Source: Candidatus Saccharimonadota bacterium (GTDB taxonomy: Bacteria; Patescibacteriota; Saccharimonadia; Saccharimonadales; Saccharimonadaceae). From it: a stretch of DNA of 32,000 nucleotides. Location of the stretch: NCBI GenBank assembly GCA_001029695.1, contig CP011211.1, positions 420,001 to 452,000 of the forward strand, written 5' to 3'. This document shows, piece after piece, positions 6,941 to 8,470 of this stretch (positions are counted from its first letter, which is position 1; the number at the start of each line of letters is the position of its first letter). A program made the position numbers and the translations under genes. The notes under the pieces are model-generated. The model made no database searches, was not told the DNA's origin, and saw only the letters and a program-made list of their open reading frames with translations.

Positions 6941-8470
6941 ATGGACTCAGACGATTACAAAGTAAAAATCGGAAATCTCATTCAGGAAAGTCGTCAACAT
7001 CGCGGCTACACCCAGGCCCAACTGGCAACAGCCCTCGGCACCAGCCAAAGCGCCATCAATCGTATAGAAAAAGGCGGCCAAAACATCAGCCTCGAAATGA
7101 TTGCACGTATCAGCGACGTACTCTCCCATGACATCATGACGCTCAACCAGACAGGAAAGATTAACTTCCGCGTCAATGGCGGCAAGAAACTCTCTGGCAG
7201 CATAGAAGTCAAAACGAGCAAAAATGCTGCTGTTGCCCTCCTCTGCGCAGCACTTCTTAACAAAGGCAAAACAACGCTTCGTCGAGTCGCACGAATCGAA
7301 GAAGTAAACCGTATCATCGAAGTACTCCAGAGCATTGGCGTAAAAGTCCGTTGGCTCAATGCCGAAAACGACCTCGAACTCATTCCACCAAAGCGCCTCC
7401 AACTTGAAAACATGGACATCGAGGCAGCCAAGCGCACTCGAACTGTCATTATGTTCCTTGGACCACTTCTCAACCAGTATCCAGATTTCAAGCTTCCATT
7501 TGCCGGCGGCTGCAACCTCGGCAAACGTACTGTCGAGCCACACATGACTGGTCTACGTCCATTTGGCTTGGACGTGGAAGCAACGACTGAGTACTACCAC
7601 GCAGTTACGCACAAAAAAGGCATCAACCACGCAATTCTCCTCACCGAACGTGGCGACACAGTTACCGAAAACGTCATCATGGCAGCGGCACTCCACGATG
7701 GAGAAATAACGATTCGAAACGCTAGTCCAAACTACATGGTGCAAGACCTATGTTTCTTCCTACAAAAGGTTGGCGTCAAAATAGAAGGTATCGGCACAAC
7801 GACACTGACGATTCGTGGCGTAAAAAGCATCAATCAAGATGTCGAATACTACCCAAGCGAAGACCCTATCGAAGCGATGAGCTTCATTGCCGCCGGCGTT
7901 GTCACTGACTCAGAAATCACCATCAAGCGCGTACCGATCGAATTTGTTGAAATCGAGCTTGCCACACTCACAGAAATGGGCCTCTCTTATGAGCAAACAC
8001 CCGAGTACCCTGCACGCAACGGTAACACTCGCCTGGTAGATATCCACCTCAAGCACTCCAATCTTACTGCCGCAAAAGACAAGCTTCATGCCCTGCCATT
8101 TCCTGGGATCAACATGGACAACCTTCCATTTATGGGACTTATCGCGACAGCTGCAAAAGGTCGTACGCTCGTACACGACTGGTCATACGAAAATCGTGCA
8201 ATCTATTTCACCGAGCTTAGCAAACTAAACGCGCAGATCGAGCTTCTCGACCCGCACCGCGTCTACATAAACGGCCCAACAAAATGGAAAGTAGCTGACG
8301 TTGTCGCACCACCTGCATTACGTCCGTCTGTCGTCGTGCTCCTCGCTATGCTTGCCGCACCTGGCCACTCGATCCTACGTGACGTCTACTCAATCAACCG
8401 CGGGTATGAAGATTTTGCCAACCGTCTCAATAGCCTCGGAGCTGAAATCGAAACAATTCGCGAGATCTAG
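6941..8470 (+). CDS. murA: XRE-type HTH domain fused to UDP-N-acetylglucosamine 1-carboxyvinyltransferase
   Basis: Residues about 8-65 (IGNLIQESRQHRGYTQAQLATALGTSQSAINRIEKGGQNISLEMIARISDVL) form a classic HTH_3/XRE motif. The remaining 430 aa or so align by eye with MurA: KLSGSIEVKTSKNAAVALLCAALL, active-site loop KLPFAGGCNLGKRTVEPH with the catalytic Cys, and C-terminal INRGYEDFANRLNSLGA. Confidence 0.85.
   Translation: MDSDDYKVKIGNLIQESRQHRGYTQAQLATALGTSQSAINRIEKGGQNISLEMIARISDVLSHDIMTLNQTGKINFRVNGGKKLSGSIEVKTSKNAAVALLCAALLNKGKTTLRRVARIEEVNRIIEVLQSIGVKVRWLNAENDLELIPPKRLQLENMDIEAAKRTRTVIMFLGPLLNQYPDFKLPFAGGCNLGKRTVEPHMTGLRPFGLDVEATTEYYHAVTHKKGINHAILLTERGDTVTENVIMAAALHDGEITIRNASPNYMVQDLCFFLQKVGVKIEGIGTTTLTIRGVKSINQDVEYYPSEDPIEAMSFIAAGVVTDSEITIKRVPIEFVEIELATLTEMGLSYEQTPEYPARNGNTRLVDIHLKHSNLTAAKDKLHALPFPGINMDNLPFMGLIATAAKGRTLVHDWSYENRAIYFTELSKLNAQIELLDPHRVYINGPTKWKVADVVAPPALRPSVVVLLAMLAAPGHSILRDVYSINRGYEDFANRLNSLGAEIETIREI

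What the first reader, a model, noticed from the sequence alone, without database searches (positions are those of the whole stretch)
6941..8470. MurA fused to an N-terminal XRE-family helix-turn-helix domain
The first 65 residues or so are an unmistakable HTH_3 motif (YTQAQLATALGTSQSAINRIEKG). They are joined directly to a full-length MurA that keeps the catalytic Cys loop (FAGGCNLGKRTVEPH). MurA performs the first committed step of peptidoglycan synthesis and normally has no DNA-binding domain. The fusion suggests an enzyme that also acts as a repressor or sensor, by analogy with BirA or PutA, perhaps autoregulating from the divergent glyA/murA promoter region at 6862-6940. The retained Cys also predicts fosfomycin sensitivity.
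Basis: partly seen in the sequence, partly recalled or inferred. Interest (0 to 1): 0.6.

Follow-up and report, generated by a model that had tools for sequence, protein, structure and literature searches.

The report
Self-repressing MurA shared with actinomycetes
The enzyme that starts cell-wall synthesis in this tiny parasitic bacterium (Saccharibacteria) carries a DNA-binding head and has a matching palindrome on its own promoter, so it probably switches off its own gene; Streptomyces and relatives carry the same gene and switch, and appear to have acquired them from this lineage.

Summary
The fusion is real: one 509-aa frame, HTH_3 (aa 14-61) plus a MurA with all catalytic residues checked, and the only MurA in this 1.04-Mb Saccharibacteria genome. 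An 18-bp perfect palindrome (6913-6930), unique in the genome, lies between the -35 and -10 of its own promoter. The motif precedes 63/82 Patescibacteria and 87/87 actinomycete HTH-murA loci, but 0/13 HTH-less members of the same subfamily. One base pair changes on both arms between the phyla. The ortholog is Streptomyces murA2 (SCO5998), mapped as leaderless, so the site overlaps a used promoter. Best reading: a trigger-enzyme-like autorepressor (about 0.8); binding is not shown and the ligand is unknown. This scan found the fusion and operator before on other DNA (e1-3060236, e1-5272092). Not in the notes I saw: (1) actinomycete copies form one clade nested in Patescibacteria next to or inside Saccharimonadaceae, which suggests epibiont-to-host transfer (AU p about 0.001 with close outgroups, 0.24 with distant ones); (2) a branch that lost the catalytic Cys loop keeps HTH and operator and sits between divergent mur operons, apparently as a dedicated regulator. 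No paper on the HTH was found.

The parts
6941..8470 (+). HTH-MurA fusion gene, 509 aa; the only MurA/EPSP-family gene of the genome
6941..7123 (+). N-terminal XRE/Cro-C1 helix-turn-helix domain (aa 1-61; Pfam HTH_3 aa 14-61); recognition-helix residues 94-100% conserved in 409 proteins
7127..7153 (+). Flexible linker (aa 63-71, pLDDT < 50)
7163..8467 (+). MurA enolpyruvyl-transferase domain (aa 75-509); TM 0.87-0.92 to solved MurA structures
7511..7513 (+). Cys191 codon, equivalent to E. coli Cys115
6913..6930 (.). Candidate operator: perfect 8-bp inverted repeat with 2-nt centre (conserved core ATATCA-N4-TGATAT at 6914-6929); the only exact copy in the genome
6906..6934 (+). Predicted murA promoter: -35 at 6906-6911, 17-nt spacer filled by the operator, -10 at 6929-6934, 6 nt before ATG (leaderless geometry)
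   Evidence: the ortholog SCO5998 is mapped as leaderless
6884..6912 (-). Predicted divergent glyA promoter; its -35 overlaps the murA -35 and abuts the operator
5584..6861 (-). glyA (serine hydroxymethyltransferase), divergent neighbour in 54 of 82 Patescibacteria HTH-murA loci; possible secondary target

Best explanation
The protein is a working MurA whose N-terminal XRE domain binds, as a dimer or higher oligomer, to the palindrome on its own promoter and blocks RNA polymerase, so the enzyme sets its own level. Shown here: the fusion, intact catalytic residues, the palindrome, its position over the -10 region, and its co-occurrence with the HTH. Shown in a paper for the Streptomyces ortholog: the leaderless transcript. 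Inferred: binding and repression. More weakly inferred (about even odds): the ligand state of the MurA domain gates binding, most plausibly UDP-MurNAc (the half-open 'dormant' complex, PMC9975281) as co-repressor, so that the gene is off when downstream precursor is plentiful. The regulon is essentially the gene itself. History: the MurA subfamily arose within Patescibacteria, gained the HTH there, lost it several times together with the operator, and passed once, with its operator, to actinomycetes from a Saccharimonadaceae-like donor (about 0.7).
For: Palindrome unique in the genome and placed between -35 and -10. A match of at least 10/12 within 70 nt upstream in 63/82 Patescibacteria and 87/87 actinomycete HTH+ loci, 0/13 HTH-less members of the same subfamily and 0/9 ordinary murA; background 17/829 ORF upstream regions of this genome. 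Outside Saccharimonadales, where HTH+ and HTH-less copies are interleaved on the tree: 10/12 vs 0/13. Paired position 3 reads A-T in 54 and C-G in 43 of 109 distinct sites. The left arm is not a by-product of an extended -10: only 41 of 1671 perfect right arms in this genome have a left arm of 5/6 or better. Recognition residues Q25, T34, S35, Q36, S37, R41, E43, Q47 and N48 are 94-100% conserved in 409 proteins. In 3 of the 4 actinomycete genomes with an exact site, the only copy is at murA2. SCO5998 is leaderless (PMC4895711 Supplementary Data 2). Catalytically degenerate relatives keep both HTH and operator. Tree.
Against: No binding or expression experiment exists here. 19/82 Patescibacteria HTH+ loci score below 10/12, and a few (L123, L130, L160) show no recognisable site; L129 (weak HTH, no site) was left out of the counts. 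The consensus was drawn from loci L001-L080 and kin are not independent; the compensatory change is essentially one event. The right arm overlaps promoter sequence that is conserved for its own reasons. Streptomyces murA2 also has other regulators (SigB, BldM-WhiI, predicted DmdR1). The AU test with distant outgroups did not reject actinomycetes lying outside (p 0.24). Nothing here identifies a ligand.
Confidence: 0.8

Rival explanations
1. Plain concentration-dependent autorepression: the HTH binds the operator regardless of ligand, and the MurA domain serves only as carrier or oligomerisation scaffold. This is a variant of the best explanation without metabolite sensing.
For: The linker is predicted flexible. 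The most degenerate relatives (P0200, P0210) have lost nearly all active-site residues, yet P0210 keeps a perfect operator.
Against: The P0137/P0288 branch keeps D305 and R331 in all 8 members while losing the Cys loop, which fits retained sugar-nucleotide binding. Ordinary MurA changes conformation with UDP-GlcNAc and UDP-MurNAc (PMC9975281).
Confidence: 0.35
2. The palindrome is bound by another factor or is a promoter feature, and the HTH has some other role (localisation on the nucleoid, protein contact, or none).
For: No direct binding data. The right arm resembles an extended -10 in Patescibacteria.
Against: The site is absent wherever the HTH is absent, persists in 70% GC actinomycetes with a change on both arms, and stays with catalytically dead HTH-MurA. 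A shared outside factor in two phyla would be needed.
Confidence: 0.12
3. The protein activates rather than represses, or mainly regulates the divergent glyA.
For: The operator abuts the predicted glyA -35 here, and glyA is the divergent neighbour in 54/82 Patescibacteria loci.
Against: The site fills the murA spacer and overlaps its -10. Its distance to the murA start is mostly 9-14 nt, while murA-glyA gaps range from about 55 to 390 nt. Actinomycete loci examined have other neighbours.
Confidence: 0.08
4. Direction of transfer reversed: actinomycetes gave the gene to Saccharimonadaceae, from where it spread to other Patescibacteria.
For: Host-to-symbiont transfer is the usual expectation (own knowledge). 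AU p 0.24 with distant outgroups. Fast-evolving CPR sequences may be drawn towards the outgroup.
Against: With closer outgroups the alternative is rejected under two models (p 0.0006 and 0.001). Two of those outgroups are labelled Patescibacteria MurAs. Actinomycete copies are shallow and patchy (40/251 in the class, 7/201 in the phylum), while Patescibacteria copies are deep and near-universal in the order.
Confidence: 0.25

Closest known systems
Streptomyces MurA2 (S. coelicolor SCO5998; S. venezuelae sven5810 / vnz_28735)
   Same: Taken as the ortholog: the same 1530-nt length; the published SigB promoter of SCO5998 matches about 330-345 nt upstream of the HTH-murA in close Streptomyces loci, with an aconitase-like gene divergent; Streptomyces proteins are 63-66% identical over the full length. 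I did not hold the S. coelicolor sequence itself.
   Different: The papers found treat it only as a second MurA and a target of BldM-WhiI, SigB and DmdR1 (PMC4125116, PMC8346170, PMC12161575, bioRxiv 10.1101/2023.08.23.554472). The passages read mention no HTH, operator or origin. Here it is the only MurA.
Canonical MurA (TIGR01072; PDB 5u4h, 1uae)
   Same: Same fold (TM 0.87-0.92) and catalytic residues.
   Different: About 30% identity, below the TIGR01072 cut-off. No solved MurA covers residues 1-72. Known control is by feedback inhibition and proteolysis, not self-repression.
Enzyme-repressors / trigger enzymes: BirA, PutA, NadR (own knowledge)
   Same: A DNA-binding domain fused to a pathway enzyme, with an operator over the gene's own or the pathway's promoter.
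   Different: Different enzyme and different DNA-binding family (XRE rather than winged helix or ribbon-helix-helix). Ligand gating is proven for those and untested here.
XRE/Cro-C1 autorepressors (HipB-like)
   Same: HTH_3 domain, weak matches to HipB models and structures, palindromic operator on its own promoter.
   Different: No toxin partner; the C-terminal part is a peptidoglycan enzyme.

Membership tests
MurA (UDP-GlcNAc 1-carboxyvinyltransferase) | EPSP/MurA two-domain fold over about 420 aa | tested here: met
MurA (UDP-GlcNAc 1-carboxyvinyltransferase) | K22, N23, R91, C115, R120, D305, R331, R371, R397 | tested here: met
   conserved in 401 or more of 409 relatives
MurA (UDP-GlcNAc 1-carboxyvinyltransferase) | Curated HMM cut-off | tested here: inconclusive
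   PRK09369 passed, TIGR01072 equivalog not passed
MurA (UDP-GlcNAc 1-carboxyvinyltransferase) | Enzyme activity | not testable with these tools
   Indirect only: sole EPSP-family gene in a 98.8% complete genome with murB nearby
XRE/Cro-C1 HTH regulators | HTH_3 domain above the gathering score, with helical bundle | tested here: met
   50.7 vs 23 bits; helices 3-21, 25-32, 36-43, 51-61
XRE/Cro-C1 HTH regulators | Conserved palindromic operator at the own promoter | tested here: met
   (sequence evidence only)
Trigger enzymes / enzyme-repressors (BirA, PutA type) | Demonstrated specific DNA binding and repression | not testable with these tools
   needs EMSA and reporter assays
Trigger enzymes / enzyme-repressors (BirA, PutA type) | Regulation gated by substrate or product | not testable with these tools
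   inferred only
Streptomyces MurA2 orthologs | One clade, same length and architecture | tested here: met

The most novel reading that the evidence does not exclude
Probability: 0.35. Interest if true: 0.85.

Novelty: new variant of a known kind. Interest (0 to 1): 0.66.

Why it matters
MurA is the fosfomycin target and the commitment step of wall synthesis. Its known controls act on the protein; I found no report of a MurA that regulates its own transcription. The prediction comes with an exact operator and can be tested at once in S. coelicolor or S. venezuelae, where murA2 is non-unique and already cloned. It would be one of few defined regulatory circuits in Saccharibacteria. The tree points to a core gene passing from a reduced epibiont lineage to its host phylum, whereas PMC8406219 notes a lack of evidence for transfer between experimentally profiled pairs. 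The dead-enzyme branch shows a route from enzyme to regulator.

Tried and rejected
Frameshift or merged genes: rejected. The HTH-only hit in G036 looked like a split form but is a contig end. A wider regulon in this genome: no other exact copy of the 18-mer and three copies with 2 mismatches; the looser 12/12 consensus occurs three times, two of them not examined; no support for a regulon was found. Homodimer prediction of aa 1-72: no verdict, score 0.28 against a mark of 0.32; not used as evidence. AU test with distant canonical outgroups was inconclusive (p 0.244). Monophyly of Saccharimonadaceae without actinomycetes was not rejected (p 0.119), so the donor may be a sister of the family rather than a member. 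Test A (p 1e-9) is not relied on, because P0132 of unknown taxonomy was forced outside; one search repeats it with P0132 inside. Rows left out of trees: near-duplicates, two truncated extractions (L125, L146), and long-branch degenerate proteins. Metagenome scan with P0137 found nothing. Literature searches for MurA with HTH, XRE, autoregulation or trigger enzymes found no relevant paper; the library lacks most subscription journals. The 'Chloroflexi' label on P0003 (95% identical over aa 1-130) is probably a mis-binned contig and was not counted as a third phylum.

Full report
Observation. Window 6941-8470 is one open frame of 509 aa. Pfam gives HTH_3 at aa 14-61 (E 1.9e-13) and EPSP_synthase at aa 78-496. 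NCBIfam places it in the MurA subfamily model PRK09369 above cut-off, but below the TIGR01072 equivalog cut-off. The AlphaFold model (mean pLDDT 87) shows a helical N-terminal domain, a low-confidence linker at 63-71 and a MurA fold with TM 0.87-0.92 to solved MurA structures. Nine catalytic and substrate residues, including the Cys115 equivalent (Cys191), are present. It is the only EPSP-family gene in a single-contig, 98.8% complete, 1.04-Mb genome. The nearest named relatives are Saccharibacteria.

The fusion is not an artefact. Of 40 relatives in the same order, 38 carry it full-length and stop-free, one is cut by a contig end and one incomplete genome has no hit. In a sample of 251 Patescibacteria genomes most have an ordinary MurA (30-38% identity). 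37 have this subfamily: 24 with the HTH and 13 without. It is also in actinomycetes at 59-67% identity: 40 of 251 genomes of the class and 7 of 201 drawn across the phylum. Some of these also have an ordinary MurA; in three of five checked it is the only EPSP-family gene besides one probable AroA.

Operator. A perfect 8-bp inverted repeat with a 2-nt centre lies at 6913-6930. It fills the 17-nt spacer of a sigma-70-type promoter whose -10 ends 6 nt before the ATG, and it is the only exact copy in the genome. Upstream regions of relatives show the core ATATCA-N4-TGATAT in Patescibacteria and ATCTCA-N4-TGAGAT in actinomycetes, mostly 9-14 nt before the start codon. Scored against the joint 12-base consensus, at least 10 matches occur in 63/82 Patescibacteria HTH+ loci and 87/87 actinomycete loci, against 0/13 HTH-less members of the same subfamily and 0/9 ordinary murA genes. 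The background is 17/829 ORF upstream regions in this genome. Outside Saccharimonadales, where HTH+ and HTH-less copies alternate on the tree, the counts are 10/12 against 0/13. The third pair is A-T in 54 and C-G in 43 of 109 distinct sites. This is essentially one evolutionary event, but it is what a two-fold protein-binding site predicts. The right arm overlaps promoter sequence, so I tested the left arm separately: of 1671 perfect right arms in this genome only 41 have a left arm of 5/6 or better. The recognition-helix residues are 94-100% conserved over 409 proteins from both phyla. In actinomycetes the exact site is nearly unique to this promoter. Caveats: the consensus was drawn from part of the same set, kin are not independent, 19 HTH+ loci score lower, and L129 (weak HTH, no site) was left out of the counts.

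Link to a model organism. Close Streptomyces loci carry the published SigB promoter of SCO5998 about 330-345 nt upstream and an aconitase-like divergent gene. SCO5998 spans 1530 nt, the same as this ORF. I therefore take it as the ortholog, murA2. It is listed among leaderless transcripts mapped by dRNA-seq (PMC4895711 Supplementary Data 2). So the palindrome overlaps the -10 region of a promoter in real use, and, lying upstream of the transcript start, it is not an RNA hairpin there. Papers treat murA2 only as a target of BldM-WhiI, SigB and DmdR1. Searches found none on its HTH.

Dead-enzyme branch. The search of 50% representatives found distant HTH-MurA proteins of 32-43% identity. P0137, P0139, P0161 and P0288-P0292 have lost R91, C115, R120 and R371 and mostly R397, but keep D305 and R331. 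P0200 and P0210 have lost nearly all active-site residues. Of nine such loci with DNA, the operator directly upstream scores 12/12 in L202, L206, L207 and L215, 11/12 in L216 and 10/12 in L205; L214 has a variant below threshold; L204 and L208 have none at the gene. In L202, L205 and L214 a second MurA that keeps K22, R91, C115 and R120 (with odd residues at 331 and 371 in the two aligned) lies divergently with murB. In L207, L215 and L216 divergent Mur ligases flank the site. HTH and operator thus persist where catalysis is gone, which argues that the regulatory function is selected by itself.

History. On the enzyme domain alone, actinomycete copies form one clade (100/99) inside a clade with the window's family (99/99, 100/98). 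That family includes rows named Saccharimonadaceae. This clade lies within other Saccharimonadales and then other Patescibacteria, with HTH-less forms at the base. The nearest named outgroups are Kerfeldbacteria and Parcubacteria MurAs. Forcing actinomycetes outside all Patescibacteria rows is rejected with close outgroups (p-AU 0.0006 under LG+G4, 0.001 under C20) but not with distant ones (0.244). Whether the donor was inside or sister to the family is open (p 0.119). Saccharibacteria are epibionts of Actinobacteria (PMC8406219, and own knowledge), which offers a route. I put transfer from Patescibacteria to actinomycetes at about 0.7.

Mechanism. Most likely the enzyme, through paired HTH domains, occludes its own promoter (about 0.8, inferred). 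MurA moves between open, closed and half-open states with UDP-GlcNAc and UDP-MurNAc (PMC9975281), so ligand gating, with UDP-MurNAc as co-repressor, is plausible but only about even odds against plain dosage control. glyA is divergent in 54/82 Patescibacteria loci, but its distance from the site varies widely, so it is at most a secondary target.

Verdict. The gene is already annotated in databases, and this scan has reported the fusion and operator on other genomes. The regulatory role is not in the papers I could search. It is a new variant of a known kind (enzyme-repressor) that can be tested directly in Streptomyces. The transfer direction and the dead-enzyme branch are tested here and were not in the earlier notes I was shown. 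Interest 0.66.

Noticed in passing
L202:2473-4003, L205, L207, L214, L215, L216: Catalytically degenerate HTH-MurA genes with the operator between divergent mur operons; candidate dedicated regulators of peptidoglycan genes. L205 and L214 share a variant site (ATAAC..G[CT]TAT), possibly a second compensatory change.
   Followed up: partly
L202:1124-2440 (-), L205:1058-2416 (-): The partner MurA keeps K22, R91, C115 and R120 but has G and Q at the R331 and R371 positions and sits on a very long branch.
   Followed up: no
L204:1186 and 1742: Two 11/12 operator-like sites upstream of NUDIX and NTP-transferase genes that precede a degenerate HTH-MurA; the operator may have moved to the head of an operon.
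   Followed up: no
L114 (G068:C1:202313-203809): A genome outside the class carries an HTH-murA nested among Saccharimonadales copies: transfer within Patescibacteria or a mis-binned contig.
   Followed up: no
L213 (G289:C66:13219-13234): A second exact actinomycete-type palindrome in one Streptomyces genome, away from murA2; context not examined.
   Followed up: no
window 249-3679 and 5048-5512: A 976-aa RCC1-repeat protein behind a 167-aa ORF, and a type IV pilin-like gene (N-methylation motif) next to murB (3934-4962).
   Followed up: no
window 20714-22675 (-): A complete glycoside hydrolase family 97 gene, which seems unusual for a reduced Saccharibacteria genome; origin not checked.
   Followed up: no
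window 27810-31404: MurT ligase (27810-29081), an overlapping 240-aa ORF (GatD by position, not tested) and an OpgC-like acyltransferase (30343-31404).
   Followed up: no
window 3730-3806, 8521-8597, 9565-9639, 11086-11161: Four tRNA genes (Arg, His, Gly, Arg); tRNA-His starts 51 nt after the murA stop.
   Followed up: no
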